DNA of 63,501 nucleotides, the filler included, from an uncultured Methanosarcinales archaeon (GTDB taxonomy: Archaea; Nanobdellota; Nanobdellia; Woesearchaeales; DSVV01), in NCBI GenBank assembly GCA_964593285.1. It is 4 parts of 4 records of this genome, joined end to end, with 100 filler letters (N's around TTAATTAATTAA, not from the genome) between each part and the next. Parts side by side here need not be neighbours in the genome. Positions count along the whole stretch, not along the records: positions 2,224 to 18,980 come from CAZQHZ010000002.1; positions 19,081 to 44,840 come from CAZQHZ010000016.1; 2 more parts are not named here. One strand, given 5' to 3'. How positions within the stretch are numbered: the first letter of the stretch is position 1; every line of letters begins with the position of its first letter. Positions 2,404-27,457 of the stretch are shown piece by piece. Below the pieces are notes generated by a model. It made no database searches. It was not told the origin of the DNA and saw only the letters and a program-made list of their open reading frames with translations. Position numbers and translations under genes: made by a program.

Positions 2404-5220
2404 ATGTTAAAAAATAGGGTTTTTTATTTATTTTTGATTATTTTTTTATTTGTTTTAGTTTTTTTTGTAATTTCAAACCCTCCATCTCCTGGAACTGTAA
2501 ATCCGGTTGATCCTGAAGAGTCATTAATAGATTCATTGGATGAGTATGTTAAAATAAGTACTTGGATTTCTTGTTATGATGAAAATAGAAATAGTGATAT
2601 TGTAGTTGATTCAAAAATTAATGTAAGTCCTTTGCCAGACGGAAGATCTTATTACCATAATTCTCTTACAAAAGATGTTTGTTTTGATTATAGATGTAGT
2701 AATAAAAATTCTTGTAGGCACATGGGAAAAGTTGGGCTTTGGGGCTGGAGAGGACCAGAAGATCAAGGAGAATGTTTCACATATGATTGGATGGATATAG
2801 CTAATAGTGAATATTGTTGTAATTTTGGTTCTAGATTGGAAAATTATCAATCTGATGGAAGCCGGGTTAAATTTGATTGTTGCATAGGTTCATTTACTAG
2901 TGAAGATGATGAGGAACCATATACTTTTTTTCAAGTTTTATCTACTCCACAATCTTACAGGCCATATTTACATAGATATGAAGGAGAATGTAGTATTTTT
3001 ACAACTGTTGAAACTAAAGGAAGAGTTCCAGATAAAGGTAAAACTAAATTTGTTACGCATTCTTCTACAACAAATGAATTGATACATACTATTGATTGGG
3101 ATGATAATCAAAGCGATTGTGAAGTAATTGGAGGAAATTGGACTGATGAAGCAGGATTTGATGGAAGACGATGCTGTGGTGATGATTATATATGGCTTTT
3201 TGATAATGATTTAGAATTATATGAAAATGATGAAATTTCAAGAGTTTCATATGATCCTTTTTTAGAAGCAGATGAAGATTATGAGCAATATTTATATGGT
3301 GACCCTAGCTATTCACATTTTTTTGCTGGTAGAGGTAATTTAAAAACAGACGTTGGAAAATGGACTGGTGATGATGATAATGTTTTAGTTTGTTATAATG
3401 AAAATGATAATTATGAATGGCTTAGTGAAAATGATGCAGCAAATCAAAATGAAGTATATTGTGAACTTTTTTTAGGTTATAACTGGACTGGTTCAAGATG
3501 CTGTGGGCTGGATGATTCTACATACGATGATGAAATAAATCATTGTGATGCAAAGGAAATTATTCATCAGATGAGTCCTGAAAATAATTTCATAACTCCT
3601 TTGTTTTTAGAACAATTTAATAGTTATTGTTCTCAATATGATACTAGTAATAGGGCATGTTTTCAAGGAAACATTGTTGAAAATAATACAATTACAAAAT
3701 CAGATGCAAATCAAAATGAAGTTTATTCATTAGATGGTAAATTATATTTTTGTAATAGGGATTCACAAAATCAAATTTATGAAGATTTTGAGCATGTAGA
3801 TAAATGTCATGTTTTTGGAACAACTAGTGATGATTTAGCAATATGTGGATATACTAATGACTCTTGGTATGATTCTTATGATGCATCATCCTTTTTAGGA
3901 TTTGATTTTTCAGATTATTCAGCAAATCAAGATGTTGATTTGGTTTTATCACAGTTACATGAAAGTAGTTTACCTCACCCACAAGATTTTGAATATCCAA
4001 GGGAGTGTTGTTTTTTTAATAGGTGCTGGAATGGAAGCCAATGCGTTGATGAAGATGAGGTTTATTCATTTGATGGAGATAATTGGAATTATTTTGATAA
4101 ATATCATGGTGATGAATATAATGGTAATCATGAATATTATGTTTGTCATGAGGGTGATTGGATAAATTCAGATGTAAAATTAAATCATTTTAAAGATTAT
4201 TCTGATCCTGGATTTTGTAATATGAACTTTTCATGTTATTGTAATCAAAATTCAAATTATCCATATAATTATGTGTGTGATGCAGATGATGATGAGGTTT
4301 CAATGGATTGTACAATAAATGAAAATTTTTATTCAAATGATAATTATTGTCTTGCAAATTATGAAGGAGATAGTGCTGTTTCTTCACAATGGATTACTAG
4401 AACCAAATTAGTTGCTATTCAATTAATTTTAATGGCGCAAGAAAATGATTTTGTCTTATTTTGTGATAAATTTGATAATTCAGTAAATTATCCAATAGAT
4501 TTAGAAAATACAAGATATCCAATTAATAGTGTTTGTGTAATTGAATATGATGAAAAAAGAATCATGGGTTTTTCTTTTAATCCAGAAAAAGAAGATGAAG
4601 ATGCACTCGATCAATTTTTATTCGATCCATCAAATGGTTTTTTAAATTATGTAATTGATAGTGATAATTTAGAAGATGAATTTTGTAATGCTTTAAATTC
4701 TGATGTTGATGGTTCAAAACACGGAAATTATGTTAATTGTATTAATAATTCAATATGGATAAATAAAAAATTATCTACAATTATTTATTCAAAAGATGGA
4801 ATTTCACAAAGTAATATTTTTTCAATTGATTCTTATGTTGATATTTTAGATAGTGAAGATGAAAAAATTAATAGTTTAATTGATTCAATTTCAAATAAAG
4901 AAGTTTATCATTATAATTTTAAAAACCCAACGGATTTTTCAAGATTTTATTATTCTAAAAAAGAAAATCAAGAAATTTTAGGATTAATTGATAAAAGGTA
5001 TGATGAATGGAAACCATCTCCTCCAAAACTTATGAACTATATATATGTTAGATATAGTGGTTTTAGTAATGTTTGCAATCACGTAGATTTTGCAAAAAGT
5101 GCTAGAAATTTTGGAATCTCTTGCCATGAATTAAATGATGATACATATGTTCTTGCGAGAACTTCAATTGATAATCCAGCTTATTGGCTTGATTTAACTT
5201 CAAAAATGAGGGCTAATTAA
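2404..5220 (+). CDS. Large Cys/Asp-rich exported or membrane-anchored surface protein (938 aa)
   Basis: N-terminal hydrophobic segment; repeated C...(G/Y)NWT...RCCG-DD motif; many paired Cys. Confidence 0.8.
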   Translation: MLKNRVFYLFLIIFLFVLVFFVISNPPSPGTVNPVDPEESLIDSLDEYVKISTWISCYDENRNSDIVVDSKINVSPLPDGRSYYHNSLTKDVCFDYRCSNKNSCRHMGKVGLWGWRGPEDQGECFTYDWMDIANSEYCCNFGSRLENYQSDGSRVKFDCCIGSFTSEDDEEPYTFFQVLSTPQSYRPYLHRYEGECSIFTTVETKGRVPDKGKTKFVTHSSTTNELIHTIDWDDNQSDCEVIGGNWTDEAGFDGRRCCGDDYIWLFDNDLELYENDEISRVSYDPFLEADEDYEQYLYGDPSYSHFFAGRGNLKTDVGKWTGDDDNVLVCYNENDNYEWLSENDAANQNEVYCELFLGYNWTGSRCCGLDDSTYDDEINHCDAKEIIHQMSPENNFITPLFLEQFNSYCSQYDTSNRACFQGNIVENNTITKSDANQNEVYSLDGKLYFCNRDSQNQIYEDFEHVDKCHVFGTTSDDLAICGYTNDSWYDSYDASSFLGFDFSDYSANQDVDLVLSQLHESSLPHPQDFEYPRECCFFNRCWNGSQCVDEDEVYSFDGDNWNYFDKYHGDEYNGNHEYYVCHEGDWINSDVKLNHFKDYSDPGFCNMNFSCYCNQNSNYPYNYVCDADDDEVSMDCTINENFYSNDNYCLANYEGDSAVSSQWITRTKLVAIQLILMAQENDFVLFCDKFDNSVNYPIDLENTRYPINSVCVIEYDEKRIMGFSFNPEKEDEDALDQFLFDPSNGFLNYVIDSDNLEDEFCNALNSDVDGSKHGNYVNCINNSIWINKKLSTIIYSKDGISQSNIFSIDSYVDILDSEDEKINSLIDSISNKEVYHYNFKNPTDFSRFYYSKKENQEILGLIDKRYDEWKPSPPKLMNYIYVRYSGFSNVCNHVDFAKSARNFGISCHELNDDTYVLARTSIDNPAYWLDLTSKMRAN

Positions 5221-5236
5221 TTTATTTGTTTTTAAA

Positions 5237-6817
5237 ATGAGTTATAAAAAAAGTCAAATTACAATATTTTTAATATTAGCAATAATTATTGTTTTTATTT
5301 TAGTTTTATCTTTTAATTTGGATAAAGTAGTTATTAATTCAAATCAGCCATTTAATATTAATCAAATAGAATCAAATTTTAAATCTCATGTGGAAAGTTG
5401 TATTGAAAGTAGTGCAATTGAAGCTTTATTTTTAGTTGGAAGGCAAGGTGGTGTGATTTATGATTACCAGGTTAATGGTGCTTTGACATATTTAGGTCCT
5501 AATTTGTTTAGTTATGGCGAGTTTATTTTGCCAGTTAAAGATGAATTTGGTGTTTTTAATGTAAGTTATGGTATTGTTAGATCAATTAATGAGTTAGAAC
5601 CACCATTTTATCCATATGGTTTTGAAAAATTAATAGAAAATCCAAAATTAATAAATTCAGATTATAAAAATATTTTTGGAAATTATCCAGAACCTGGACC
5701 TTTAAATCCTTTGTGCAATCCTACAGGTCCAAATGCAAAGGATACTCCAGGAATTATTTATTTTTGCACTAGTTATGGCTCAAAAAATTTGAAAAATAGT
5801 ATTCAAGATTATTTAAATTTATACATCACAAATAAAACACTTGAATGTATTGATTATTCTATTTTTAGTAATGTTGAAAATTTTGAATTAGATGAAAATT
5901 TAGTTAAAACTGATGTTAAATTTACTAATGAAGAATTAATTGTGGATGTTTTTTTTCCAGTTAGATTAAAATTAGATGAAAATACTTTTATTAAAGTAGA
6001 TGATTTTACTGTTAATATACAGAATAGATTAAAATTAATTCATGAATTAGCTGAAAAGTTAATAGAACATGATGTTAATAATGTTTTTTTTGATATAGTA
6101 AGGCATGCTGAGCGATTAAATGATTGTCGAAAATGGAAGGGTACTAATAGTTATTGTTTAAAAGATGGGATTAGTGTTTCACGAATTATTAATCCTTGTT
6201 TAAAAAATGAAAATAAAAATTGTCCAAAAAGAGGAAACTACGATAATGTTTTAGTTATTGAAGATAAAAAAGTAACTTTACAAGGGGCACCATATACTTT
6301 TTATTTGGCAATCCAAAATAGAAGACCTGCACTTGATTTAATATATAATGATTCTAAAACTTATGAGGGTTTTGATATAGTTGGTGTTGTTGGTGAGCGA
6401 ATTGTTATTGATCCAAAAGGCTATGATCCAGATTCTGATTATCATGGATATGATGGAATTATGAAATCTAGGTATAGTTATAATATGTGGAAAGAAGATT
6501 ATAATGACATTTATAAAAAATGGTATTGTGAATATAAGCGTGATGATATTTATGTTAATTTAGATAGTTGCTTAAATGATCTTTTTGATGAAGCTGTTTC
6601 AAGAATTAATGAGCGACCTAAAAATTTCACACAATCAATTGAATTTGTAGAAACTAAAAGGAAAGCTGGTTATACTCCAACAAAAAAAGATATTGGGGCC
6701 CATAATTTAAAAGTTCAAGTTTGCGATGAAGAAAATTTATGTGATTTTCAAATTTTAAAAATTTTAATTTGCTGTAAATTTGAAGATGGTGAATGTATTT
6801 TGGTATGTGAGGATTAA
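5237..6817 (+). CDS. Class III signal peptide (pilin-like) protein with C-terminal Ig/PKD-like region
   Basis: KKS/QITIFLILAIIIVFIL; VESCI...GRQGG shared with 53047; C-terminal YDPD...GAHNLKVQVCD. Confidence 0.8.
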   Translation: MSYKKSQITIFLILAIIIVFILVLSFNLDKVVINSNQPFNINQIESNFKSHVESCIESSAIEALFLVGRQGGVIYDYQVNGALTYLGPNLFSYGEFILPVKDEFGVFNVSYGIVRSINELEPPFYPYGFEKLIENPKLINSDYKNIFGNYPEPGPLNPLCNPTGPNAKDTPGIIYFCTSYGSKNLKNSIQDYLNLYITNKTLECIDYSIFSNVENFELDENLVKTDVKFTNEELIVDVFFPVRLKLDENTFIKVDDFTVNIQNRLKLIHELAEKLIEHDVNNVFFDIVRHAERLNDCRKWKGTNSYCLKDGISVSRIINPCLKNENKNCPKRGNYDNVLVIEDKKVTLQGAPYTFYLAIQNRRPALDLIYNDSKTYEGFDIVGVVGERIVIDPKGYDPDSDYHGYDGIMKSRYSYNMWKEDYNDIYKKWYCEYKRDDIYVNLDSCLNDLFDEAVSRINERPKNFTQSIEFVETKRKAGYTPTKKDIGAHNLKVQVCDEENLCDFQILKILICCKFEDGECILVCED

Positions 6818-6930
6818 TAAAATTTATATTTTGTTATTATTTTAGGATTTTAATCACAAAATATATAAATGTAATATTTAAGTTTTAATAATAAATAAAA
6901 TAGTTTACATATGTTTTAAAAATAAAAAAA

Positions 6931-9900
6931 ATGAGGTTTAATTTTTTTAATAAAAAAAAAAGTATTTTTTGTTTTATTTTTTGTTTAATGTTAGTTATTT
7001 TTGTAACTTCCTTTGCTTATTCAGAAAGTAGCCAAGGATATTGTGCAAATCCTTTTGTTAGTCCTGCTTCATTATTGTGTAGTGATTCAAAAATTTCAAG
7101 AGATTTGTGTTGTCCTGAAAATGTAAATTATTATGATGAAGGAAATTTTATTGAAACACGGGAAGAATGTGTTGAAAATTATTTTTTTGAAGAAAAAAAT
7201 GATATATATGAAGAATATTGTTCTGTTAAGTGTTGTCTTGATTCTTCAGAAACTGATTGTGATGAGATTTATAAAATAAAGTGTTTGGGTGAAGAAGGCA
7301 CACCTTCTGTAAATGAAACTTGTAATAATGCAGGGGTTAATGATTTACCTAAATGTATGCAAGGGTGTTGTTGTTATACTCAAAATGAAATAGATTTTTC
7401 AGATATTATGTCTAATAGTAGATGCGATGAATTTGATGGTAGTTTTGATAGTACAATAACTAATTCAAACAATTGCATGGAAATTTGTGAAATTGAAGAT
7501 GAAGGTGTTAGTGGGTGTTATCCTGAGTGTGATGTTGGGTATGAATGTATAAATAGTGAATGTGTTTATATTGAGGATGAAGAAGTGTGCGATCCATGTG
7601 AGGATTTTGATTGTGATGGTGAATGTGATTTATTTTCATCTTGTCCGATTGATGAATTTTTAGTTTCTAATTGTAATTGTTTTGGAAGTGTTTGTGGAAG
7701 TGAAAAATATTGTTGTGATGGGATTGGATGTACTAATTCTCCTTGTAGCTCTGCAGAGTGTAGTTCAGATATTCCTTGTGGTACAACTAATGATGAAGGA
7801 TGTCCTTTATTTAAAAGATGTAGGATAGATAATACTTTAAGTGCTGTGTGTGAACCACGGGCTGATTGTGGTATGGAATTAGAAATATGTGATACTCCAG
7901 AAGATGATAATCAAAATGATTTAATCAATTGTCAAGATAGATTTTGTCATGATGTGGTTTGTGCAAATTCAGAAGATGATTATTCAAATTGTATGGACAG
8001 GGGGTATTTTGATCATAATGATGAAAATTGGAAATGCTGTTACAATGGGCCTTTGCAAGACTGTAATGAGGATGGAGTTAAAGATACTTGTGGGGCTTGT
8101 AATTGTTTATTATTAGATCCTTTGCCAAGTCCAATACTTAAAAATATAACTTTAATTGGAAATAAAGATAAATTAAAAATTGAATGGTCACTTAATTGTG
8201 AAATTGATTTTTATTTGTATAAGTGTGAAGGTGAATCTTGTTCATCAATTGAAAATTTTGAACAAATTAAATCAACTAGTGAAAAAATATATGAAGATTC
8301 AGCCATAAATTATGATACACCATATTGTTATTATGTTTCTGCAATTTATCCAAATGAAGTTAAAAATTCAGACATTAAATGTATTGACGGTATAGATAAA
8401 ACTTGTATGGGAACACCACATACAAATTTTTGTGTTGATGAAAATAATGAATTTAAATCAAGGTTAACTAAAAGAGCAATTTGTGATAGTAAAGGCCAGT
8501 TGATTATTTCTGAAGATTGCACAAATAAGGGAGAAGGATATATGTGTAAAGGTCCAAATTCAGGTGGGCAAACTACTTGTCTTATTACAGATGATTGTGA
8601 TAATTGTGGTGATCCATTTAATGTTTTTGCATATTTTGATAAATCAAAAACGCTTGATAAAGACTTAAATGAAGTTTTATGTAAGAATTTAGATAGTTGT
8701 TTTTATGATTTTTCTTCTTCTTCAGTTGATTATTTTAGAAGTTGTTTTGATGTTCGAAGTTGTTATGATTATAGAAGTAAATTTGCATGTGAAGAACAAA
8801 ATTTAAATGATTTTAACAATAAATGTCTTTCAAGGAATTGTGAATGGGTTTTTGTTGATGAAGAATTAAATCAAGGAATTTGTAGAGAAAAAAATCCACT
8901 TCATAATAGATGTGAATTATGTAATAGTAATGAATTTAATGAAGTTTTTGGTTTATGTAATTATGAAAAATGTGAATTATTTGGTGATTGTGTTTATAGG
9001 TCAAGCGATGGTTTATGTATTGATTCATATGGGATGGAATGTAATGATTTTTTAACACAAACGCATTGTACTGGAGGTAGTAATTTAGATATGGATATTT
9101 CTTATAATTCTGAAGGAAAAAGAATTTCTGGAACTAACGAGATAATTACAAGAAGTGCTGATGTTGGTGGAATTGGTCTTTGCAGATGGGATAGTACTAG
9201 AAGTGAAGGTGATAAATGCTATAAAGATGCAAATTTTGATGAAAGTTTAGATCCTTTAGGTTTTATAGATTATACGCCACCAAAAACAACAATTGTTTCT
9301 CCAGATAAAATGAGAAATTTAAATATTTCTTTTCATGTATCGGATTTAGCAGGATTTGGTAAACAAAATTCAGGAGTTAATGATTATGATGTTTTCTTCT
9401 GTGTTACTAAACAAAATGAAGATCCTTGTTATCCAAATAAGCGACCTAATTTTATGGAAAATAACAATGGTTGGTTTTATGAAAGTGTTGATGATGGAAA
9501 ACATAATGTATATTTTTATGCAGTAGATAATGCAAATAATTTAGAAGTAGTTAAAAAATTTGAAGTTAATATTGTTAAAAATGGACCAGAAATTACATTA
9601 AATGCACATACTTATTTATATGAAGATAGTGGTGCGGTTTTATTTGAGATTATTTCACCAGAAAATTTATTTTGTTCAGATATATTTTTTAAATCTGAAA
9701 CTGAAGAACTATCTAATTTAGAAAATTCATATGGGGATTATTTTCAATCTAGGTTTTATGATTTGGATGATGGTTTTTATCAATATGCAATTTCATGTAT
9801 AGATGAATTAGGAAATCAAATTACTGAGGAAAAAACAGTTAGAATATTATTTGATCAATCTATCTTTGAAGTTTTACCTACAGGGGTTTTAGATTTAGAG

Positions 9901-12900
9901 GAAGTTGATTTAAATTTAAAAACACGTATTTCTGAATGCAGATGGTCTTTTGAAGATATTGATTTTGATGATATGGATAATAATTTTAATTGTCAAGAAG
10001 GTGTTATTGATTCTGAAACATACTATGATTGTGTTGATACTTTTAATCCTACAGAAAGTAAAACATATCATATCCATGTTGCATGTAAAAAAAATAATCA
10101 AATAAGTAAAGATAAAATATTATTTGTATATGATAATTCATCTCCAACAACTAATATTGTAGATTCTAATGATAATTTATTTAATTATTTTGCAGCACAT
10201 ACTCCAAGTTCACTTAATAATAGTTTGTTTTTAAATTGTACTGATTCACCTAGATTTGGTTTTGGATGTAATTCTTCATTTTATTGTCTTAGTAATCAAG
10301 GTTATTGTAATCCTAACATAAAAGTATCAAAAAATAAGGCTATAAATTTTAATGTTACATCTTTTAATAATTTAGTTGTATGTTTTAATTCTAAAGAAAA
10401 TGTTATTGATGGTATGGGCGGATTAACTGAAACTAGAAAATGTTATGATATGGATAACGTAGATGTGGATGATCCAATTATTAGTGTAATGGACACATTA
10501 AAAAATTATGACCAAAGTGATGATCCTCTTAGAGTTCATGAGTTGAATTTAACAGATGATAAATTTTTATTATCTGGTATTGTAATGGATCCAGATGTAT
10601 CTGATGTAAATTTATTAAATAATAAATTAGACCTAATTGTTAAACACAACGGTACTCAAAATTCATATTTAAATATCGGAGCAAATCCAAATTTTGAGCA
10701 AGAAATAGTTTTAAAAAAAGGTGGTATTAATACTATTGAACTTAGAGCTAGGGATAGATCTAATAGTTTTTCAAATATTTATTCGTATTATATCTCTTAT
10801 ATTGATTATTTTGGAGATAAAATTTATTTATTAGAACCTTTATTTGGTGTATCAGATTCTAAACAATTTGATCTATTAATTGAAACTTATAAAGGTGCAG
10901 ATTGTAGATATTCACTAATCGATGGAGGTTATAATTCTGCAAAACCTATGGATAAATTTAATGAAACAAACAACCAACACACAATATTTTTGAATTGGGA
11001 GCATTTTTCTGAAAATTTAAAACAAGAGATTTTTATTTATTGTAAATTTGATGGTGAAAATTTAATTGATGAAAAATCTTTTTATTTATCTTATAATACA
11101 AAAGTTCCAAAAATTGATCTTTCTATAGATAATTCAGTTTTTGGTTTAATTCCTTTAACTATTGTTGAGCGACCATTTCAAACTAACATAACAGTTAAGT
11201 CTGATGTTTTAGTTAGATGTAAATATACTACTTCAAAAACTGTTTCATTTGATAATATGAATAAATTTGATGGTTTTGATGATGGGTTATTTAATACTAC
11301 AAATGTATTGTCTATTACTGATTTAGAAGATAATAAAGGTTATACATTTTATGTACAATGTGAAAATGAAGCATTAAAAAGATCAAAAAAAGAAAAAATT
11401 TATTTTGAAATTGATAGTTCAAAAGATCCCGGTATTCATTTAGTTTCTCCAAAAAGTCCAACAGCGAATAATTCTTTTAAAGTTAGTGTTAGAACCTCTA
11501 AATTAAGTTTGTGGTGTAAACTTAAACAAAAAGGTAATGAAGAGCGAGAGATGGAAGAATTAACTAATTATGATTTTATTTCACACACAACTTTTAATGT
11601 ATTAGATGGAAAAAATGATTTTTCTGTGAGTTGCTTAAATAATGATGGATTGTCTTCACAAGATTTTAAGATAATTGTTGATACAAAAAAACCAAGTACG
11701 CCGCTTGTAGAAACAGATTCAAAAACCAATAAAAAAGATTATTTAAGTGCAAAATGGTCCGTAAATAAAAGTATTACAGATATTGTATTATATAATTATT
11801 CAATAGGTAAATCACCTGGCGCTCATGATGTTTTTAATTGGACAACTACTATTAGGACTGATGAAATGGTTACTGGATTAAATTTATCTGATAAAATTTC
11901 ATATTATTTTAATGTTAAAGCAAAAAGTGAAGTTGGGCTTTGGAGTGATATGGGTTATTCTAGTATTTTAGTAGATTTTGAAAGTCAAACAAATGGTACA
12001 AATGAAACTCAACCTGATTTATGTAGTAATGGTGAATTGAATTCAGATCATGGTGAAACAGATATTGATTGTGGCGGGCCGTGCGAAGAATGTGGATTTA
12101 ATCAGTCATGTATTTTAAATTCTGATTGTATGTCTGGTGTTTGTTTTGAAGAAAAATGTGCTATGCCTAGCTGTGATGATGAAATAAAAAATCAGGATGA
12201 AACTGCAGTTGATTGTGGTGGAAAAGTATGTGATTCATGTACTGAAGGTAAAAGTTGTAAAAAAGATGCTGATTGTATTACTGAATTTTGTCATCCGTTA
12301 GATAAAAAATGTCTTTATGCAGCATGTGATGATGAATATATAAATTGTCATATTGATGAATATGGTGTAAGAGATTGTGAGGAAGGAACTGATTGCGGAG
12401 GACCATGTGAACCATGTCCTGAAGATTCTGGTGATGTTTGTTATGTTAATGAAGATGGTGAAAACTTACTAGATAGTGATTGTGATAAAATTCCTGATGA
12501 TTGGGAAGAAATGCATGGATTAAATCCAAATGATCCAGACGATGCACTATTGCCAAATAACGATAATCCAAGATTAACTAATTTAGAAGCATATAAAGAA
12601 AATATAAAAAGATCTGATGAACTAGAACCATCAAAAGATAAATCTAGTTTATGGTTTATTATTTTAATAATTTTATTAATTATTATTTTATTAATTGCTT
12701 TATTAATAACTTTATATTATGCATTTTATGATAAATTTCCATCTAAATATAGGTTCGTTATAGATAGTTATATAAATAAAATAAAAAGTTATTTTTTAAA
12801 CTTAAAAAACGAAATTTTAAAAAACAATTTTTTAAAAAATAAAATATTTAATAAAAATTCAAAAAAAGAGAATTCTTATCAAAATAATTCATTTAAAGAT

Positions 12901-13245
12901 TATGGTTTTAATAGTGATATTGGAAAGTTTAAACCAAGGCAGGATTTTAATGATTCATATTCAGCAAAATTTATAAAACCCCAAAAAATTAATAAACCAA
13001 TTAATGTAAAAATTGATGATTCAAAATATATGGATGTAAAAAGTACTAAAGAAATGGTTAATTTAATTAGAAAGGATAGAAATGAACAAATAAAAAAACA
13101 AGCTGAATTAATGCAAAAATCAAAACCAAAAGAAAAACCAAATTTAAAAGATTTAAATGTTAGAAAAAAATCATTGTATGATAAAATTAGTGATAGTTTT
13201 GGAAAAACTGAAGAAACTGAGAAATTAAAAAAAAGATTAAAATGA
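6931..13245 (+). CDS. Giant Cys-rich single-pass surface adhesin-like protein (2104 aa)
   Basis: Sec signal; Cys-rich N-half; FN3/Ig-like segments; three DCGG-type Cys repeats; DSDCDKIPDDWE Ca-binding-like motif; TM LWFIILIILL...; basic cytoplasmic tail. Confidence 0.85.
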   Translation: MRFNFFNKKKSIFCFIFCLMLVIFVTSFAYSESSQGYCANPFVSPASLLCSDSKISRDLCCPENVNYYDEGNFIETREECVENYFFEEKNDIYEEYCSVKCCLDSSETDCDEIYKIKCLGEEGTPSVNETCNNAGVNDLPKCMQGCCCYTQNEIDFSDIMSNSRCDEFDGSFDSTITNSNNCMEICEIEDEGVSGCYPECDVGYECINSECVYIEDEEVCDPCEDFDCDGECDLFSSCPIDEFLVSNCNCFGSVCGSEKYCCDGIGCTNSPCSSAECSSDIPCGTTNDEGCPLFKRCRIDNTLSAVCEPRADCGMELEICDTPEDDNQNDLINCQDRFCHDVVCANSEDDYSNCMDRGYFDHNDENWKCCYNGPLQDCNEDGVKDTCGACNCLLLDPLPSPILKNITLIGNKDKLKIEWSLNCEIDFYLYKCEGESCSSIENFEQIKSTSEKIYEDSAINYDTPYCYYVSAIYPNEVKNSDIKCIDGIDKTCMGTPHTNFCVDENNEFKSRLTKRAICDSKGQLIISEDCTNKGEGYMCKGPNSGGQTTCLITDDCDNCGDPFNVFAYFDKSKTLDKDLNEVLCKNLDSCFYDFSSSSVDYFRSCFDVRSCYDYRSKFACEEQNLNDFNNKCLSRNCEWVFVDEELNQGICREKNPLHNRCELCNSNEFNEVFGLCNYEKCELFGDCVYRSSDGLCIDSYGMECNDFLTQTHCTGGSNLDMDISYNSEGKRISGTNEIITRSADVGGIGLCRWDSTRSEGDKCYKDANFDESLDPLGFIDYTPPKTTIVSPDKMRNLNISFHVSDLAGFGKQNSGVNDYDVFFCVTKQNEDPCYPNKRPNFMENNNGWFYESVDDGKHNVYFYAVDNANNLEVVKKFEVNIVKNGPEITLNAHTYLYEDSGAVLFEIISPENLFCSDIFFKSETEELSNLENSYGDYFQSRFYDLDDGFYQYAISCIDELGNQITEEKTVRILFDQSIFEVLPTGVLDLEEVDLNLKTRISECRWSFEDIDFDDMDNNFNCQEGVIDSETYYDCVDTFNPTESKTYHIHVACKKNNQISKDKILFVYDNSSPTTNIVDSNDNLFNYFAAHTPSSLNNSLFLNCTDSPRFGFGCNSSFYCLSNQGYCNPNIKVSKNKAINFNVTSFNNLVVCFNSKENVIDGMGGLTETRKCYDMDNVDVDDPIISVMDTLKNYDQSDDPLRVHELNLTDDKFLLSGIVMDPDVSDVNLLNNKLDLIVKHNGTQNSYLNIGANPNFEQEIVLKKGGINTIELRARDRSNSFSNIYSYYISYIDYFGDKIYLLEPLFGVSDSKQFDLLIETYKGADCRYSLIDGGYNSAKPMDKFNETNNQHTIFLNWEHFSENLKQEIFIYCKFDGENLIDEKSFYLSYNTKVPKIDLSIDNSVFGLIPLTIVERPFQTNITVKSDVLVRCKYTTSKTVSFDNMNKFDGFDDGLFNTTNVLSITDLEDNKGYTFYVQCENEALKRSKKEKIYFEIDSSKDPGIHLVSPKSPTANNSFKVSVRTSKLSLWCKLKQKGNEEREMEELTNYDFISHTTFNVLDGKNDFSVSCLNNDGLSSQDFKIIVDTKKPSTPLVETDSKTNKKDYLSAKWSVNKSITDIVLYNYSIGKSPGAHDVFNWTTTIRTDEMVTGLNLSDKISYYFNVKAKSEVGLWSDMGYSSILVDFESQTNGTNETQPDLCSNGELNSDHGETDIDCGGPCEECGFNQSCILNSDCMSGVCFEEKCAMPSCDDEIKNQDETAVDCGGKVCDSCTEGKSCKKDADCITEFCHPLDKKCLYAACDDEYINCHIDEYGVRDCEEGTDCGGPCEPCPEDSGDVCYVNEDGENLLDSDCDKIPDDWEEMHGLNPNDPDDALLPNNDNPRLTNLEAYKENIKRSDELEPSKDKSSLWFIILIILLIIILLIALLITLYYAFYDKFPSKYRFVIDSYINKIKSYFLNLKNEILKNNFLKNKIFNKNSKKENSYQNNSFKDYGFNSDIGKFKPRQDFNDSYSAKFIKPQKINKPINVKIDDSKYMDVKSTKEMVNLIRKDRNEQIKKQAELMQKSKPKEKPNLKDLNVRKKSLYDKISDSFGKTEETEKLKKRLK

Positions 13246-13739
13246 AAATTTTTAAAAAAGCGGATACAGCATCTCAAGCATTTATTTACATTTTTACTTT
13301 ATTTGTAATTGCTTTTTTGTTATTTATGGGTGTTAAATGGCTTTTAAGTTTGATGGCTTTAGGTGAAGATATTAATGTTTCACGGGTTAAAATTGATTTA
13401 GAGAATTCTTTTGATTCAATAAAAACAAGGTATGGAAGCCGGGCTGTTAAAACTTTTACCATACCAAATGAGGTTAGTGTTGTTTGTTTTTTTGGAGAGA
13501 GTTATAGTGGTGGAGATATTTGTGATAGTTTAAAAGATGATTATAATCCAATACTTTGTGAGCTTGGAAAAGATCAAGGAATAAATGTATTATTTTTCCC
13601 ACTTGGAAATATCCCTATTTATTTACCAGATTTAGAAATTGCAGATGAAGATTATTTATGTTTTGATGTTACTAATGGTAAAATTAAGGTCAGATTACAA
13701 AGTCTTGGGAACAAAGTTAAAATTTCAGAACCTTCTTAA
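13242..13739 (+). CDS. Pilin-like protein, class III signal peptide
   Basis: KKA/DTASQAFIYIFTLFVIAFLLFMG; ATGA overlap with upstream gene. Confidence 0.8.
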   Translation: MKIFKKADTASQAFIYIFTLFVIAFLLFMGVKWLLSLMALGEDINVSRVKIDLENSFDSIKTRYGSRAVKTFTIPNEVSVVCFFGESYSGGDICDSLKDDYNPILCELGKDQGINVLFFPLGNIPIYLPDLEIADEDYLCFDVTNGKIKVRLQSLGNKVKISEPS

Positions 13740-15581: not shown

Positions 15582-15582
15582 T

Positions 15583-16385: not shown

Positions 16386-17204
16386 ATGAATAAAAAATCA
16401 CAAATGACATCTTTGATACAGATAATTTTAATTGTTATAGTTTTAGTTGCAATACTTTTTTTTATGAGGTCTTTTATATCTATAGGTGAAAAAGTTGTAG
16501 ATGATGAAATTTGTAGAACTACTGCTGCTGCAAACGTTAAAGCCAAATTTGTTGGATTGGAATTGTTTCAATTAAAATGTCCAAGAAAAGTAGTTCATTT
16601 TTATGAAAATGGTTATAAAATGTATTATTCATCTAGAGATATTGTTGATATTGAAAAAAAAGAATTTTATAAAAGGTTTAATTATGATGGTGATGATAAG
16701 TTATTAAAAAATGAATACTATGAATTGCTTGCAGATGAAATGGCTGGTTGCTGGTATAAACTTGGAGAAGGTAAGTACAATTTTTTTAAAGGATTAGTTG
16801 AGGGTAGAGCTACAAAAGCACAAGGTTGTATTATTTGTAGCGATATTATAAATCATGTTGATAATATTGATTTTAATCTTTTAGAATTTAAACAATTTTT
16901 AAAAAAAAATAAATTTACAAAATATGGGAAAGATGTTTATTATTATGATTATTTAGAATATGATTTAATTCAGGAAAAAGTAAAAATTGCGAATTCAGAA
17001 GAAAATGATTATATGTTTTTTGATCCTGATCTTATTGATCCTGATGTTATTGATTTAAAAGATTTTCCTTTATTTATTGATGATAGCAATACTTTTAATT
17101 TTTTGATTACTTATAATGTTATTTCAATAAATGCATTTGAATATTTTTTTGTTTCAATTACAAATACAGATTATAATGCTTATTTTTGTGATACTATAAA
17201 ATGA
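16386..17204 (+). CDS. Pilin-like protein, class III signal peptide
   Basis: KKS/QMTSLIQIILIVIVLVAILFF; LADEMAGCWY...CIICS core. Confidence 0.8.
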   Translation: MNKKSQMTSLIQIILIVIVLVAILFFMRSFISIGEKVVDDEICRTTAAANVKAKFVGLELFQLKCPRKVVHFYENGYKMYYSSRDIVDIEKKEFYKRFNYDGDDKLLKNEYYELLADEMAGCWYKLGEGKYNFFKGLVEGRATKAQGCIICSDIINHVDNIDFNLLEFKQFLKKNKFTKYGKDVYYYDYLEYDLIQEKVKIANSEENDYMFFDPDLIDPDVIDLKDFPLFIDDSNTFNFLITYNVISINAFEYFFVSITNTDYNAYFCDTIK

Positions 17205-18091
17205 AAAAAAAAGGTGAATTAAATAAAATAATTGTATCGTTAGTTTTAGTTTTATTTGTATTATTTATTTTATTTATTTTTTATACTGATTTGTTTGAGA
17301 CATTTTATGATAAAAAACATAAAAATGAGTGTAAGCAAGCATTATATATGGCTTCATTATCTAATATTAAAAATAATGATTTTTTAAATTTTTTTGGTGG
17401 ATTTGGTTCTGGTAGTGATTCTGGAAATGTTCCTTGTAAAATTAATGTAAAAAAAATAACTACTGGTGATAAAGAAGATGTAAAAAAAGAAATTGCTAAT
17501 TTAATGTATGATTCTTGGGATATGATGCATATGGGACAGCTTGATTTTGTTTCAGGTAGAAAGACTGAAACTTATTGTATTATTACAGATGTAATTGAAT
17601 TTGAAGATGATTCTAAAAATATTGGTGAAATTGATAATTTTTTAGATTATTTATCTGAAAAAAAAATTACAAATCCATCTTTTGAAGATACAACATATTT
17701 AGAATATTTACAATGTTACAACACTGTAAGTAAATATTTTGATGATAAGATAATGATTGAACATGATTTTGATTTTAATATAGATACTAATCAAGATTAT
17801 GCAATTATGTTTGTTTATTCAAGGGAGGGATATTTACATAGAATATGGGCTGGGATGAAAGGTGCTGGTGCTGGTGGGGTAATTGGTGGTGTTTTAGCAG
17901 TTAAATTTGGAGCATTAACCGGTGGTGTTGGTATTATTGTATTAGGTGTTGCTGGTGCGGGTATTGGTTATGAAATAAATCCTAGCGTTGGTGCTGATTG
18001 GAGTTCTTGTATTATATTAATACCATATGAAGAAAATTTTTTATCTGAATTAAATTGTACTTATATGCCTGGAATTTTTGATACAAGATAA
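17201..18091 (+). CDS. Pilin-like protein with glycine-zipper hydrophobic hairpin
   Basis: KKG/ELNKIIVSLVLVLFVLF; core similar to 16386; GAGAGGVIGGVLAVKFGALTGGVGIIVLGVAGAGIG. Confidence 0.8.
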   Translation: MKKKGELNKIIVSLVLVLFVLFILFIFYTDLFETFYDKKHKNECKQALYMASLSNIKNNDFLNFFGGFGSGSDSGNVPCKINVKKITTGDKEDVKKEIANLMYDSWDMMHMGQLDFVSGRKTETYCIITDVIEFEDDSKNIGEIDNFLDYLSEKKITNPSFEDTTYLEYLQCYNTVSKYFDDKIMIEHDFDFNIDTNQDYAIMFVYSREGYLHRIWAGMKGAGAGGVIGGVLAVKFGALTGGVGIIVLGVAGAGIGYEINPSVGADWSSCIILIPYEENFLSELNCTYMPGIFDTR

Positions 18092-18124: not shown

Positions 18125-18271
18125 ATGAAGTTAAATAAATTTGCAGAAATGCCTTTTTGGCTTGTAAAAATGGTTATTGCTTTAGCATTATTATTAATTT
18201 TAGTAATAATAATAACAACTATAAGTGGACATAATTTTGAATTTTTAGATTGGCTTAAGAGTTGGTTTTAA
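18125..18271 (+). CDS. 48-aa micro-pilin (not in ORF track)
   Basis: MKLNKFA/EMPFWLVKMVIALALLLILVIIITTISGHNFEFLDWLKSWF*; stop 1 nt before next ATG. Confidence 0.7.
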   Translation: MKLNKFAEMPFWLVKMVIALALLLILVIIITTISGHNFEFLDWLKSWF

Positions 18272-18272
18272 A

Positions 18273-18980
18273 ATGTTTAAAAAAAAAGCCATGGAAGTTA
18301 AATTTTTAGTTGGTATGATATTGGCTTTATTAGTTTTATTTATTTCTATATCTATTTTTACTAAATATTCAATACTTGATAGAGTTTATGAAATTGGTTG
18401 CAAGGAAGGATACCAAAAAATGTGTGATAAATTAGATCCAGCAAAACAACATTATCCTAATTCAATAGTTAATGCAAGAGATGACTGTTCAAGTCAATTT
18501 AATTTAGATGCCGATGAATTTGAAGATAAAAAAAATAAATATTTTAATTTAGCTTTTTATGAGGATGAAAATTATTTGTTAGAAAAAATAAGTCTTTGTG
18601 TTTATGAAGATTTATTAGAAAAATCTAAAGATCCTTCAATTAATGTAAATCAGCTTATTGATATGGATTTATCTTACTCAAAAACAGATAGTGTTCATAT
18701 TGCTAAAAGTATGGATGAATGTTTAAAAAAAGAAGAAGATAATGGATTTTATATTCAAATGAATGAAATAAAATATAATTATTTAAAAGAAAGTCTTATA
18801 GATATTAAAGAAAAATCAGCAGATAAATTAGATTTATTAAGTAAATTATTTAATTATGTAGACTGTAGTATTAAAATGTTATTTGACCAAGGTATTTTAA
18901 ATTGTGATAAGAATAGTGAAAATTATTATTCTATACTTTGTGAACTAGAAGAAGAAATAAATGAACAAGATGAAAAAGAA
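18273..18980 (+). CDS. Pilin-like protein, class III signal peptide (truncated by spacer)
   Basis: KKA/MEVKFLVGMILALLVLFISISIF. Confidence 0.75.
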
Positions 18981-23341: not shown

Positions 23342-25360
23342 TTAGTTTTTTTGTTCATTAAAAAAATTTAAAGCAAAATTATATACAAGCGGTTTAAAAT
23401 TTATGGTATTATCAATTTTATTTAAATTAGGAAATTTATGATTTTTGTTTTCAACACAAAATCTAAATTGATTTTTAAATGGAATTTCACATTGATTTAA
23501 ATCATTTTCTTCTAATTGTTCCATATAATTAATATCTGCTAAAATAAATTTATCTTCTTTTTTAAATATATAGATTGAATCACTAACAAAATTTAAATCT
23601 TTATTTTTTGTAAAAAAATTAATAACTTTTTTAAAAATTCCTTCTTCATTAAAACTTAATGAGTATTTATTTTCCTCTTTTATGTCAAATTCATCATTTG
23701 AATCAAAATAATACAAATTATATTCTTTTAAAATTATTTCATTTAAATTATTATTTAAATCAACAAAAGAAATGTTTTTTTTATTATTTTCATCATAATT
23801 TATTATTTCAAAATCAATTTTTTCATTATTTAAAAAATCAATGTCTTGTAAACTTATATTGCAATAACAATCATCATCAGTTGTTAATAAACATCTTTTA
23901 ATTTTATCATATAACTCATAAAATAAATGCTCATTATTAGCATTACATTTTCTAGACCATGTTATATTTTCATTATTAAAAGTTATTATTTTTTCATCAA
24001 CACAATTTTCAATTCCTTCATTTAATTTACAATTATCTATTAACTCAATACTTTGCTTTCTAAGTTTTGTATAAAAATTAAAATCATAATTGATTTTTGT
24101 TTTAAAATTTGTATCAATTAAATAATTAAAATATGAATAATCAGTTGAATAATCAAATGCTAAATCATCTTTTTTTATATTTGATTGTTTTATGTTTTCA
24201 TATTTAGCTTCCTCGTCTTCTGCTGAAATTAATGGCATGTCTTGTTTCATTTCTAAAAAATCATATCTATAAACTGCAACAATTTCATGTTTTGCTCCTG
24301 GCCAATAAAATGAGGGTATTTTTTCAATAACTAAACCTTTACTTCCTCTGCTATGCATTATTTCACTATTCTCTTTATATATTCCAATATGACAAATTTT
24401 TCTATTTAAATTATCATGGCATGGATCAATAAATAATATATCACCATTTTTTGCATTTTTTTCAATAATTTCTTTTGTACATTTTTTATTAGTATTAGAA
24501 TCACAAATTACTTCGCCATACTCTTTTGCATATTTTAAATAATACATTTCAGCAGTTGTTCTTTCAATATTTATACCAATGTGTCTTAAATTCCACCAAA
24601 CAAACCCTGAACAATCAAACCCTGGATTTATTTCTGTTGGAATTTGTATTCCTCTAAATATAGGATTATTTTGTTTTTGTAAATTTAAAACTTCTTGATA
24701 ACTATATGGACTAATACCACCTAATTGATAAGTTAAACCATTAAAAATTTTTGCAAAATTGTATGCTGTTTCATAAAATATTTTGTTAGCATTGTTTTCG
24801 TCAAATTCGCTAATTCTTGTTTGAACTGAATCATAATTTATTAAATAATCGTCTGCTGAAGAAAAAGTTAAAGGTGTAAATGAATGCCCTTCTAATTCGT
24901 TTTCTTCATTTATATATAAATGATAATTAAATTTTTGAAATTGAGCATAATTATATTTTTCTAAATATGAATTTAATTTTAAAATAAAATAATAATTCAA
25001 TGAATTTTCCAAATCTTTTTTTTGTGGAAATGAACCATGTGTTTTAAATTTTTCACAGTTCCACAAAACAAATCCTAAGGCCTTACCACATTTTGAATCA
25101 TTTTTATATCCCCCATATTTTGATAATTGAATTAATGATTCAACATAACTAAACTCAACACTTTTATCTAAATAAAATAGAGCATCTTGTGCATTAAATG
25201 TTGTATTTAAAATAATAATTTGAAACTTTCCAACACTATCTTCAAAAGAATTTATATTTGAAGAAAAAATAACTAACAATGAGCTAAAAGCAACTAAAGT
25301 TATTATAACTAAAAATACAGGAAATACCCATCCTTTTTTGTGTTTTTTTAAATTAATCAT
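23342..25360 (-). CDS. Class III signal peptide protein with internal NlpC/P60 cysteine peptidase domain
   Basis: KKG/WVFPVFLVIITLV; YQLGG...GFDCSGFVWW...RTTAEMY...GDILF...HIGIY...MHS. Confidence 0.88.
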   Translation of the reverse strand: MINLKKHKKGWVFPVFLVIITLVAFSSLLVIFSSNINSFEDSVGKFQIIILNTTFNAQDALFYLDKSVEFSYVESLIQLSKYGGYKNDSKCGKALGFVLWNCEKFKTHGSFPQKKDLENSLNYYFILKLNSYLEKYNYAQFQKFNYHLYINEENELEGHSFTPLTFSSADDYLINYDSVQTRISEFDENNANKIFYETAYNFAKIFNGLTYQLGGISPYSYQEVLNLQKQNNPIFRGIQIPTEINPGFDCSGFVWWNLRHIGINIERTTAEMYYLKYAKEYGEVICDSNTNKKCTKEIIEKNAKNGDILFIDPCHDNLNRKICHIGIYKENSEIMHSRGSKGLVIEKIPSFYWPGAKHEIVAVYRYDFLEMKQDMPLISAEDEEAKYENIKQSNIKKDDLAFDYSTDYSYFNYLIDTNFKTKINYDFNFYTKLRKQSIELIDNCKLNEGIENCVDEKIITFNNENITWSRKCNANNEHLFYELYDKIKRCLLTTDDDCYCNISLQDIDFLNNEKIDFEIINYDENNKKNISFVDLNNNLNEIILKEYNLYYFDSNDEFDIKEENKYSLSFNEEGIFKKVINFFTKNKDLNFVSDSIYIFKKEDKFILADINYMEQLEENDLNQCEIPFKNQFRFCVENKNHKFPNLNKIDNTINFKPLVYNFALNFFNEQKN

Positions 25361-25853
25361 TTTTCACAAGCAACCCGTATATTTTTATTAATTCATCATT
25401 TTTTAAAGTAGGAATATTTATTATACAATCATATCCTTTTTTATCGTGTGGATTAACTAAATAAGCATCGTTAAGTTCTAAATTATCAGAATATAATACT
25501 ACTTTTTCATAATTTGATTCTTTTTGTATAAATAAAATTAAATCATTTAGCTGATTTTCTAAATCTTCAATATAATTTTCATCATAATATGCAAATGCAA
25601 TATAGGTTGCAAAATCTGTTTTATAACCATCAACTTCAATTGGTGTTTTTAATATTTGAGTTAAAATAATATTACAATCATAATTATTTGTAGCAACATC
25701 TATTTTAGAAACAATTTTATCATTTGAAATAGAAAAAACAATTATAAAGATTATAAAAATTATAAAAATAGCTAAAATTGCAAACACATCTATTGTAACT
25801 TCTGCAAAAAATGCTTTTTTATTTTTTATAAAATTTTTATTTTTTAATTTCAT
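25353..25853 (-). CDS. Pilin-like protein, class III signal peptide
   Basis: KKA/FFAEVTIDVFAILAIFIIFIIF. Confidence 0.75.
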   Translation of the reverse strand: MKLKNKNFIKNKKAFFAEVTIDVFAILAIFIIFIIFIIVFSISNDKIVSKIDVATNNYDCNIILTQILKTPIEVDGYKTDFATYIAFAYYDENYIEDLENQLNDLILFIQKESNYEKVVLYSDNLELNDAYLVNPHDKKGYDCIINIPTLKNDELIKIYGLLVKND

Positions 25854-25861
25854 TTTAAAAT

Positions 25862-26470
25862 CTAACTTCTTGGAATTAAAACTGTTATATTAATAAAACC
25901 TTGATTTATATTACCATCTTCATAAATATTAACATAATAAATTTTATTTTTTTTAAATATGCTTCCTGGGCCAAAATCTTCATTTTTATTTCTTTTTGAT
26001 TGCATAAAATTCATATTAGCAATAGGTAAATATGTATCAAATAAATTTTTATTTAAATAAATTGAATTTGATAATTGTTTATTATTGAATTGATATCTTT
26101 TTTTATTTTTATTTAATAAAGAAATTTTCATTGTAGCCATTTTTAAATTATTATCGTTTCCTAAATCAAATAATTCATCTAAAATATTTTCATTATTAAT
26201 TAAAAAAAAAGAAGCATTTATTGTAAATGGATAGTTTCTATTAATTGAATTATCAAAATATGATGGACCATCTAAATTTAAAAAAGTTAAATAAATTAAA
26301 TTATTAGCTTCAAGTTCAATTGTATCTATATCAAAAAAAATATACTTATTTACAACAACAACAAATGCAATAAATAAAAAACTTAACATAAATAACCGTA
26401 CAAAAACAAACATAATTGTTTTAAATGTGGTTTCTGCTCTTTTTTTTTTAATAATTTTTTTTATTTGCAT
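25862..26470 (-). CDS. Pilin-like protein, class III-like signal peptide
   Basis: KRA/ETTFKTIMFVFVRLFMLSFLFIAFVV. Confidence 0.7.
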   Translation of the reverse strand: MQIKKIIKKKRAETTFKTIMFVFVRLFMLSFLFIAFVVVVNKYIFFDIDTIELEANNLIYLTFLNLDGPSYFDNSINRNYPFTINASFFLINNENILDELFDLGNDNNLKMATMKISLLNKNKKRYQFNNKQLSNSIYLNKNLFDTYLPIANMNFMQSKRNKNEDFGPGSIFKKNKIYYVNIYEDGNINQGFINITVLIPRS

Positions 26471-26473
26471 TTT

Positions 26474-27457
26474 TTATTTTTCATAAGTTGAAAAAGAATT
26501 TAATAACGTTCTTGAAAATTCTGTTTCAAATTTATTAATAAATTCTTCATCGTTAAATAAATCTTTTGGAATAATAATTTTAATTACAAATGAAAAATCA
26601 TAAGATGAACCAATATTACCACTAAAATAAAATTCATTATTTCCTGGAAGAATTTTTACATCAGTAAAATAATTTAAATCTAAAATTTCTTTTTGAAAAT
26701 TACATATTAATCCTTGATTTTTATCATCTAAATTAAAATAATAAATTGTTAAATCAATATCATCAATGTTATTTTTTTCAACTAAATCAATTGCAAATAA
26801 AATATTAATGAAATTTTTATTTAAATTTCCATATTTATTATTTACATCATCTATACTACTTTTTTGTAAACGATAATTATTTAAATTAATATATTTAAAA
26901 TCTGTTAAAAATAAATCAACTATTTTTTTTGAATTTTTTATATTAACTATATCAACATATTTAAATTCAGATAAAAATTTTTCATTCGCATTATTACATA
27001 CTATATCTAAATCAAACAAATTTAAATTTGCTCCAATATTAAAATTGTTTTTTGTTTTTTTAAATGTGACTACATTTGAATTTTTTATATCTTCAAAATT
27101 TTTTATTATTTTTTTATTATTAAAATAAGGATATGAACTAATTCTTGTTTTTTCATCTATATTATTAATTAAAACTTTATTATCAGTAAATGAAATTTCA
27201 AAATCATTTAAAATTGTTTTTGAGTAAGAAAAAAATAAATCACCAGGTATTGATTGAATTGTATTTACAATAAAAGAAATATCTTTTGATAATGCTTCTC
27301 TTTTAAAAGATGAATTATCTTTTACATCACTAATAAAATTAAAAAGAGCAATAGTGATTAATGATATTAAAATTATTTCAATAATAGTCCATAAAGATAA
27401 CCTAATTCCAGCTTTTTTTTTGAATTTAAAAAAATTATTCTTATTATAATTATACAT
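26474..27457 (-). CDS. Pilin-like protein; C-terminal half possibly a degenerate Amidase_3-like fold
   Basis: KKA/GIRLSLWTIIEIILISLI; fold call is by pattern only. Confidence 0.65.
   Translation of the reverse strand: MYNYNKNNFFKFKKKAGIRLSLWTIIEIILISLITIALFNFISDVKDNSSFKREALSKDISFIVNTIQSIPGDLFFSYSKTILNDFEISFTDNKVLINNIDEKTRISSYPYFNNKKIIKNFEDIKNSNVVTFKKTKNNFNIGANLNLFDLDIVCNNANEKFLSEFKYVDIVNIKNSKKIVDLFLTDFKYINLNNYRLQKSSIDDVNNKYGNLNKNFINILFAIDLVEKNNIDDIDLTIYYFNLDDKNQGLICNFQKEILDLNYFTDVKILPGNNEFYFSGNIGSSYDFSFVIKIIIPKDLFNDEEFINKFETEFSRTLLNSFSTYEK

What the first reader, a model, noticed from the sequence alone, without database searches (positions are those of the whole stretch)
2404..27457. Synthesis: candidate pilus-borne host-attachment and wall-breaching system in a DPANN archaeon
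Seen: about 16 class III signal-peptide genes in two loci in this span (plus one at 53 kb). They come with giant Cys-rich surface proteins, an NlpC/P60 domain, a glycine-zipper hairpin, a possible amidase-like fold and, elsewhere, an exported LysM protein. Known: class III peptides are cleaved by PibD/FlaK-type prepilin peptidases and route proteins into type IV filaments; NlpC/P60 and LysM act on peptidoglycan, which archaea lack; DPANN cells are largely host-dependent. Inference: these are subunits of a filament or tip complex that adheres, digests the wall and inserts into the membrane of a bacterial or pseudomurein-walled host, conceptually like the Tad-like Kil system of myxobacteria. The loci lie on different contigs, and no assembly ATPase is in view.
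Basis: partly seen in the sequence, partly recalled or inferred. Interest (0 to 1): 0.85.

Follow-up and report, generated by a model that had tools for sequence, protein, structure and literature searches.

The report
Archaeal pilus carrying swappable wall-cutting enzymes
This tiny symbiotic-type archaeon carries a widely conserved set of about twenty pilus-subunit-like genes whose products bear interchangeable enzymes that cut bacterial cell walls, which suggests a surface filament used to grip and open bacteria.

Summary
Largely confirmed. The span holds 15 genes with class III (prepilin) N-termini, and five more follow beyond the window. The two loci are one operon in relatives (contiguous in 67 of 87 loci) and are split here. 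The last gene is a scaffold with a cargo slot: an intact NlpC/P60 here, and a peptidoglycan hydrolase in 50 of 74 scaffold-picked relatives (M23, lytic transglycosylase, M15, GH73, amidase, 3D, M74). A lytic-transglycosylase pilin and a degenerate amidase-3 fold complete the set here. The missing motor exists elsewhere in the genome (contig C14). In 9 of 17 loci from other orders it directly precedes the operon, and three small genomes hold ATPase, platform, pilins and prepilin peptidase in one locus. The enzyme set points to bacterial murein, not pseudomurein. LysM is unconfirmed. Polymerisation, membrane insertion and live-host attack are inferred, not shown. Most loci from other orders carry no recognisable hydrolase. 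Woesearchaeotal wall hydrolases and DPANN pilus motors are in print separately; my searches did not find this operon. This scan noted the same operon earlier, in other genomes and in another piece of this one.

The parts
2404..5220 (+). A1: 938-aa Cys-rich exported protein, not class III; first gene of the operon
   Evidence: homologue at this position upstream in 13 of 20 relatives' loci
5237..6817 (+). A2: class III protein of the KKS|QITIF type, between the two large surface proteins
6931..13245 (+). A3: 2104-aa Cys-rich protein with C-terminal TM helix; homologues reach over 5000 aa and carry Ig-like, CarboxypepD_reg and TSP3 repeats; probable adhesin
13242..13739 (+). A4: class III minor-pilin-like protein
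   Evidence: 29 of 30 orthologues with an N-terminal TM carry the motif
13759..14463 (+). A5: class III protein, 3' end lost in the N gap 14464-14563
14569..15051 (+). A6: class III protein (KKS|Q)
15051..15581 (+). A7: class III protein (variant KNA|Q here; motif in 39 of 40 orthologues)
   Evidence: order A4-A5-A6-A7 kept in 30 of 30 loci
15634..15882 (+). A8: 82-aa small pilin-like protein with Cys-rich tail; candidate major pilin (four paralogues in this operon)
15875..16135 (+). A9: 86-aa paralogue of A8
16386..17204 (+). A10: class III protein, paralogue of A11 without the hairpin
17201..18091 (+). A11: class III protein, long N-terminal helix (4-57), with a Gly/Ala-rich hydrophobic hairpin at about 17846-17980
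   Evidence: no clear fold match
18125..18271 (+). A12: 48-aa pilin-like peptide (variant motif)
18273..18980 (+). A13: class III protein cut by the contig end. Beyond it on G000:C2 follow a pilin-SLT fusion (16863-17702) and four more class III genes up to 19178
26474..27457 (-). B1: pilin-like N-domain (helix 17-69 plus beta sheet) fused to a degenerate Amidase_3-fold domain (aa 161-327, 26477-26977)
25862..26470 (-). B2: class III minor-pilin-like protein
25353..25853 (-). B3: class III minor-pilin-like protein
23342..25360 (-). B4: class III scaffold (aa 1-175), cargo slot, and conserved C-terminal domain (aa 406-671) of no known family
24299..24637 (-). NlpC/P60 peptidase cargo in B4, catalytic C250, H324, H336
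53047..54792 (+). Unlinked KKS|QITIF class III protein with its own Gly-rich hydrophobic segment, followed by a Cys-containing exported protein; membership of the system not shown
61543..61917 (+). Possible divergent LysM protein; unconfirmed and unlinked

Best explanation
The genes are the subunit set of one type IV filament system that is conserved across the class Nanoarchaeia. In this genome the prepilin peptidase (C22) would trim the class III leaders, and the ATPase plus fused double-TadC-like platform on C14 would polymerise the small A8-type pilins. The single-copy minor pilins (A4-A7, A10/A11, A17, B1-B4) would form priming or tip complexes. In Woesearchaeales the B4 subunit, and sometimes another subunit, carries an interchangeable peptidoglycan hydrolase, and the A1-A3 giants provide grip. 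The filament therefore most likely delivers wall-cutting activity to one spot on an attached bacterium, and the A11 hairpin may then enter the exposed membrane. Shown: motifs, synteny, linkage to motor and peptidase in relatives, cargo identity and exchange. Inferred: processing, polymerisation, tip position, a live bacterial host, membrane insertion.
For: A and B contiguous in 67 of 87 loci; B1<B2<B4 in 76 of 76 and A4-A7 in 30 of 30. Motor directly upstream on the same strand in 9 of 17 other-order loci. ATPase, platform, pilins and A24 peptidase in one locus in 3 of 5 further genomes; that peptidase is 32% identical to the C22 one. Hydrolase domain in 67 of 145 variable B4 segments against 6 of 111 other variable segments, and in 50 of 74 scaffold-picked loci, in seven families. 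Well-supported sister scaffolds carry different cargo, e.g. M23 vs SLT, and Amidase_2 vs M23 vs 3D (SH-aLRT 98). L146 has motor, pilins and SLT+M23 together; L266 has motor, pilins, peptidase and Amidase_2 together. The hairpin is in 31 of 34 loci with both paralogues.
Against: No pilin structure was matched. The B1 fold lists were filled by the amidase domain, A11 had best Z 3.9, and the B2 profile hit an archaellin N-terminus only at E=0.057. In Woesearchaeota the motor is unlinked (0 of 45 motor loci; 0 of 20 upstream regions), and two other ATPase/TadC loci exist. The platform's TadC identity is weak (hhalign E 6e-5 and 7e-4; one T2SSF hit at E=0.047 in 16). 24 of 74 scaffold-picked loci and 16 of 17 other-order loci show no hydrolase. 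Four NlpC homologues lack the catalytic Cys and B1 is mostly degenerate (5 of 62 long forms have DPGH). The hairpin is low-confidence in the model. No host is known.
Confidence: 0.55

Rival explanations
1. Same filament, but for scavenging: it binds and digests wall debris of dead bacteria or biofilm matrix rather than breaching living hosts.
For: Cargo also includes GH3, phosphoesterase and GDSL lipase domains. No toxin or channel was identified. Cargo is often missing or inactive.
Against: Tethering to a pilin with a motor, a conserved hydrophobic hairpin and repeated exchange among non-homologous wall enzymes fit contact with a specific cell better than bulk digestion (inference).
Confidence: 0.2
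2. Not a long pilus but a short pseudopilus or membrane-anchored display platform (bindosome- or T2SS-like) at the contact site; the class III leader is only an anchoring route.
For: About 20 different subunits, several with large cargo. The motor is unlinked in Woesearchaeota. No structural pilin match.
Against: Small multicopy A8-type proteins resemble major pilins (1-5 copies per locus in 59 loci). A complete ATPase-platform-pilin-peptidase locus occurs in relatives.
Confidence: 0.17
3. A general adhesion pilus of Nanoarchaeia whose wall-enzyme domains only bind peptidoglycan or deter competitors; the host may be archaeal.
For: The cargo-free core is in other orders (16 of 17 loci). The motor is in 295 of 301 phylum genomes. 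The B1 amidase is degenerate.
Against: The NlpC triad here is intact, the SLT passes Pfam's cut-off, and most M23 and SLT cargo score far above cut-off.
Confidence: 0.08

Closest known systems
Conserved type IV pilus-like loci of cluster-2 DPANN archaea (Hamm et al. 2024, PMC11291902; passages read)
   Same: ATPase plus TadC-like platform with neighbouring coiled-coil proteins, conserved in Woese-, Pace- and Nanoarchaeota. The C14 motor has this arrangement and is probably one of the two loci (not matched gene by gene).
   Different: The passages name CpaF, TadC, FlaF and PilA only; 'pilin' and 'peptidoglycan' have 0 occurrences in the main text. No 20-gene operon or hydrolase cargo is described.
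Archaeal T4F system 1 / Epd pilus of Methanococcus maripaludis (PMC13705601, PMC4858521; passages read)
   Same: Many pilins in one operon, K-[GA]|Q leaders, small major pilin, an EppA-like peptidase (C13, 379 aa) in the genome.
   Different: One fused platform instead of two genes. Small pilins read Q-G-x-S-x-N rather than the Q-x-S-x-E recalled for Epd pilins. No sequence hit to Epd families; hydrolase cargo. PMC13705601 states that Nanobdellati rarely show an ordered T4F locus.
Kil (Tad) pilus of Myxococcus xanthus with interchangeable Tips (PMC12075869; passages read)
   Same: Major pilin plus minor-pilin sets with variable domains, used for contact with bacteria.
   Different: Kil needs a needleless T3SS for lysis, and 'peptidoglycan' has 0 occurrences in that paper. 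Here the variable domain is itself a wall hydrolase, swapped between lineages rather than among co-existing tips. No homology was shown beyond a weak TadF hit (E=0.0011).
Woesearchaeotal and archaeal peptidoglycan hydrolases (PMC8204110, PMC9723730, PMC12352652; passages read)
   Same: Lytic transglycosylases and other hydrolases in Woese-/Pacearchaeota, taken as a hint of bacterial hosts or prey.
   Different: None links them to pilins ('pili' or 'pilin' 0 occurrences in each main text). PMC12352652 required a wall-binding domain (section 14), which the window's B4 lacks.

Membership tests
Archaeal type IV filament (T4F) superfamily | VirB11-type assembly ATPase | tested here: met
   PF00437 over cut-off at C1, C4, C14. 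C14 has Walker A/B and His-box-like motifs and is linked to the operon in relatives.
Archaeal type IV filament (T4F) superfamily | TadC/PilC membrane platform | tested here: inconclusive
   The 750-aa membrane protein next to the C14 ATPase has two weak TadC-like repeats; T2SSF only at E=0.047 in 1 of 16 homologues. Clear TadC pairs exist at C1 and C4.
Archaeal type IV filament (T4F) superfamily | Class III signal peptidase (A24) | tested here: met
   C22 (E=6e-16) and C13; an A24 gene closes the operon in L265-L267.
Archaeal type IV filament (T4F) superfamily | Subunits with class III signal peptides | tested here: met
   85-100% of orthologues against 22-28% background.
Archaeal type IV filament (T4F) superfamily | Pilin fold of the subunits | tested here: inconclusive
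   Models show a long N-terminal helix plus beta sheet, but no pilin appears in the fold lists.
Archaeal type IV filament (T4F) superfamily | Cleavage and polymerisation into a filament | not testable with these tools
Epd pilus (system 1) | Two separate platform genes | tested here: not met
   The motor linked to this operon has one fused platform of about 720-750 aa.
Epd pilus (system 1) | Q(+1)/E(+5) pilin N-terminus (recalled) | tested here: not met
   Q+1 is common, but no family has E+5; E lies at +3 (A7) or +6 (A6), and the small pilins have S+4/N+6.
NlpC/P60 peptidases (PF00877) | Profile score over cut-off and Cys-His-polar triad | tested here: met
   57.3 bits against 23; C250/H324/H336; PDB relatives CwlO, Spr/MepS, LytE.
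NlpC/P60 peptidases (PF00877) | Hydrolysis of peptidoglycan | not testable with these tools
   Enzyme assay needed.
Amidase_3 (PF01520), B1 C-domain | Fold | tested here: met
   The top 14 VIA rows are amidases or cell-wall hydrolases, best Z 12.1; homologue L076 E=3e-18.
Amidase_3 (PF01520), B1 C-domain | Zinc ligands (DPGH...E...H) and catalytic Glu | tested here: not met
   The window protein shows no DPGH or SxH motif; DPGH in 5 of 62 long homologues.
Myxobacterial Kil system | Tad-type pilus with TadEFG-like tips and partner T3SS | not tested
   No T3SS search was run; the resemblance is conceptual.
LysM (PF01476), 61543-61917 | Profile match | tested here: inconclusive
   No Pfam hit; weak NCBIfam hits.

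The most novel reading that the evidence does not exclude
This is the class-wide host-contact machine of Nanoarchaeia: one ancestral type IV filament, which Woesearchaeales armed with bacterial wall hydrolases in a fixed tip slot so as to drill into and feed on living bacteria. The cargo family would then predict the wall chemistry of each lineage's host, and the A11 hairpin would be the membrane-breaching element.
Probability: 0.4. Interest if true: 0.93.

Novelty: new variant of a known kind. Interest (0 to 1): 0.8.

Why it matters
All cultivated DPANN archaea live on archaeal hosts (PMC11291902, abstract), and whether Woesearchaeota live on bacteria is open (PMC8204110). This operon names the proteins that would make such a cross-domain contact, ties them to a motor and a peptidase, and gives direct tests: enzyme specificity of the cargo, and probes for host capture. 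It also supplies ordered pilin loci for a phylum in which current T4F models mostly find scattered genes (PMC13705601). The cargo slot is a catalogue of naturally tethered wall hydrolases.

Tried and rejected
Expression: no RNA holder was listed. Pfam and NCBIfam name none of the pilin-like heads. PDB profile searches gave only weak N-terminal hits. A11 had no fold match above Z 3.9. The Atlas gave only unnamed archaeal clusters and DUF7287 leads for B2 and nothing for the B4 C-domain. hhalign found no pair of operon families above 40% probability. The B4 profile did not convincingly match the B4-position gene of L267 (13.5%); B2 did match L265 (89.8%). Motor co-occurrence is uninformative because the motor is in 295 of 301 genomes. 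M23 and Amidase_3 profiles found nothing in this genome. Rejected: mixed bin; a split caused only by assembly (both junction ends lie inside contigs next to unrelated genes); pseudomurein target; A1/A3 as pilins. Literature: searches found no paper describing the operon. The library lacks most subscription journals, and I opened no supplements; tables of PMC12352652, PMC13705601 and PMC11291902 may list some of these genes.
Full report
Setting. The window is four contig pieces of one 1.18-Mb genome (95.9% complete, 0.12% contaminated). Of the 80 closest records to its C14 ATPase, 45 are labelled Woesearchaeota, Nanoarchaeia, Nanoarchaeota or Nanobdellota, 33 'Methanosarcinales' (which I take as submitters' mislabels) and 2 otherwise. 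Gene names A1-A17 and B1-B4 are mine.

Observation. Locus A (2404-18980) has 11 class III-type genes and two large Cys-rich proteins; locus B (23342-27457, minus strand) has four. Locus A continues on C2 with five more class III genes. The first of these is a pilin-lytic transglycosylase fusion (SLT 23.9 bits against a cut-off of 21.3). The leader motif is in 85-100% of orthologues per family, against 75 of 269 other N-terminal-TM proteins of the genome and 22% after shuffling. B4 has an NlpC/P60 domain with an intact C250/H324/H336 triad. The B1 C-domain has the Amidase_3 fold without the zinc motif; homologues reach E=3e-18 with PF01520. LysM at 61543 was not confirmed.

One operon. B4 matched 160 of 301 genomes of the order as a single protein, and its N-terminal profile matched 252 of 301 genomes of the phylum (the weakest hits may be QITIF-type paralogues). 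I fetched 80 loci from the listed rows and 10; 87 held B4N. A and B genes were contiguous on one strand in 67 of 87; many of the rest are short contigs, and some are true splits as here. Order was B1<B2<B4 in 76 of 76 and A4<A5<A6<A7 in 30 of 30. The A3 giant, A2 and A1 usually precede them, and A3 homologues carry Ig-like, CarboxypepD_reg and TSP3 repeats.

Cargo slot. B4 homologues keep the N- and C-terminal domains and vary the middle. Pfam found a peptidoglycan-hydrolase family in 67 of 145 variable B4 segments, against 6 of the 111 longest variable segments elsewhere in the same operons (124 shorter segments were not scanned). After dropping 13 loci picked through NlpC/P60, 50 of 74 had one: M23 23, SLT 22, M15/VanY 5, GH73 4, Amidase_2 2, 3D 2, M74 2 (hand-transcribed; it includes some hits under Pfam's cut-off). 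Within this genome's own family the slot holds NlpC/P60, M74, M23+SLT or SLT+M15. On a quick tree of 87 scaffolds the cargo label needs 41 changes (minimum 9, shuffled mean 52); deep branches are weak, but several 95-98% sister groups differ in cargo. From established knowledge, SLT, 3D, GH73 and the amidases need MurNAc or beta-1,4 glycan, and M15, M23 and M74 cut peptide bonds typical of murein, mostly at D-amino acids; pseudomurein has neither. The target is therefore bacterial murein.

Motor. The genome has three ATPases. C1 and C4 each have two TadC genes and their own pilins; C14 has a fused 750-aa platform and no pilins. In 17 loci from other orders of the class, homologues of the C14 platform (with the ATPase wherever the locus reached it) sit directly upstream of the core operon in 9; six loci end near a contig edge and two run on without the motor. 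Of five further genomes that the B4 profile had missed, three hold ATPase, platform, 8-10 class III genes and an A24 peptidase in one locus, one has the motor without adjacent pilins and no A11 match, and one has a distant weak match. That peptidase is 32% identical to this genome's C22 peptidase. In Woesearchaeota the motor is unlinked (0 of 45 loci), so its use by this operon here is inferred from the linked state elsewhere. The motor is in 295 of 301 phylum genomes.

Against the predatory reading. Only 1 of 17 other-order loci (L146, SLT+M23) and 1 of the 3 complete loci (L266, Amidase_2) carry a recognised hydrolase, so wall cutting is an add-on to an older contact machine. Four NlpC homologues lack the catalytic Cys. 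No pilin structure was matched. The A11 hairpin is conserved in composition (42 of 65 loci; 31 of 34 with both paralogues) but is poorly modelled. No host or expression data were obtained.

Mechanism. Most likely (0.55): a processed, motor-driven filament or tip complex holds a wall hydrolase against an attached bacterium, with giant adhesins for grip and possibly a hairpin for membrane entry. That it is a T4F system at all I put near 0.85. Rivals are debris scavenging (0.2), a non-filament display platform (0.17) and plain adhesion (0.08).

Literature. I read passages found by term search of PMC12352652 (plus section 14), PMC9723730, PMC13705601, PMC4858521, PMC8204110, PMC11104419, PMC11291902, PMC12075869 and bioRxiv 10.64898/2026.06.04.730037; bioRxiv 10.64898/2026.05.13.725050 had no occurrence of the six terms. 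No supplements were read. The hydrolases and the motor loci are each in print; the ordered pilin operon with a swappable hydrolase slot was not found in searches. Earlier notes of this scan describe the same operon or parts of it; they are not independent support. I reached the synteny, cargo and motor results before reading the notes that match them; the Hamm paper came from those notes.

Verdict. Real, widespread, a new variant of the type IV filament kind, and it makes the question of bacterial hosts for Woesearchaeota directly testable. Interest 0.8.

Noticed in passing
G000:C3:23959-33452 (L261): A second wall-enzyme locus: a class III protein, a 1094-aa membrane protein with an SLT domain (E=5e-16) and four lipoprotein-like genes.
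   Followed up: partly
G000:C10:20772-21980: Stand-alone exported protein with an SLT match (E=3e-7).
   Followed up: no
G000:C5, C8, C9: Five scattered archaellin-family genes; no archaellum operon was seen next to the three I inspected.
   Followed up: partly
G000:C1:90119-105877, C7:10714, C11:14181, C12:30693, window 53047: Several unlinked KKS|QITIF class III genes, most next to a large exported protein; possibly exchangeable adhesin cassettes. One matches the B4 scaffold weakly (E=4e-4).
   Followed up: partly
G000:C1:44436-51253 and C4:7874-20564: Two other complete ATPase + two-TadC + pilin loci.
   Followed up: no
L026:2804-9415 (G025): 2203-aa giant with NlpC/P60 behind a QITIF class III gene: hydrolase cargo on an adhesin cassette.
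   Followed up: no
L113:11769-16202 and L079:4007-7147: Multi-enzyme genes (phosphoesterase, M15 and NlpC/P60; L113 also GDSL and M23) inserted between the split B4 halves.
   Followed up: partly
window 27575-30042: GCS2-like and N-formylglutamate amidohydrolase genes next to locus B.
   Followed up: no
window 33941-34957: SurA-like lipoprotein preceded by a short near-duplicate of its 5' end.
   Followed up: no
window 63278-63501: About 85-base tandem repeat at the end of contig C20.
   Followed up: no
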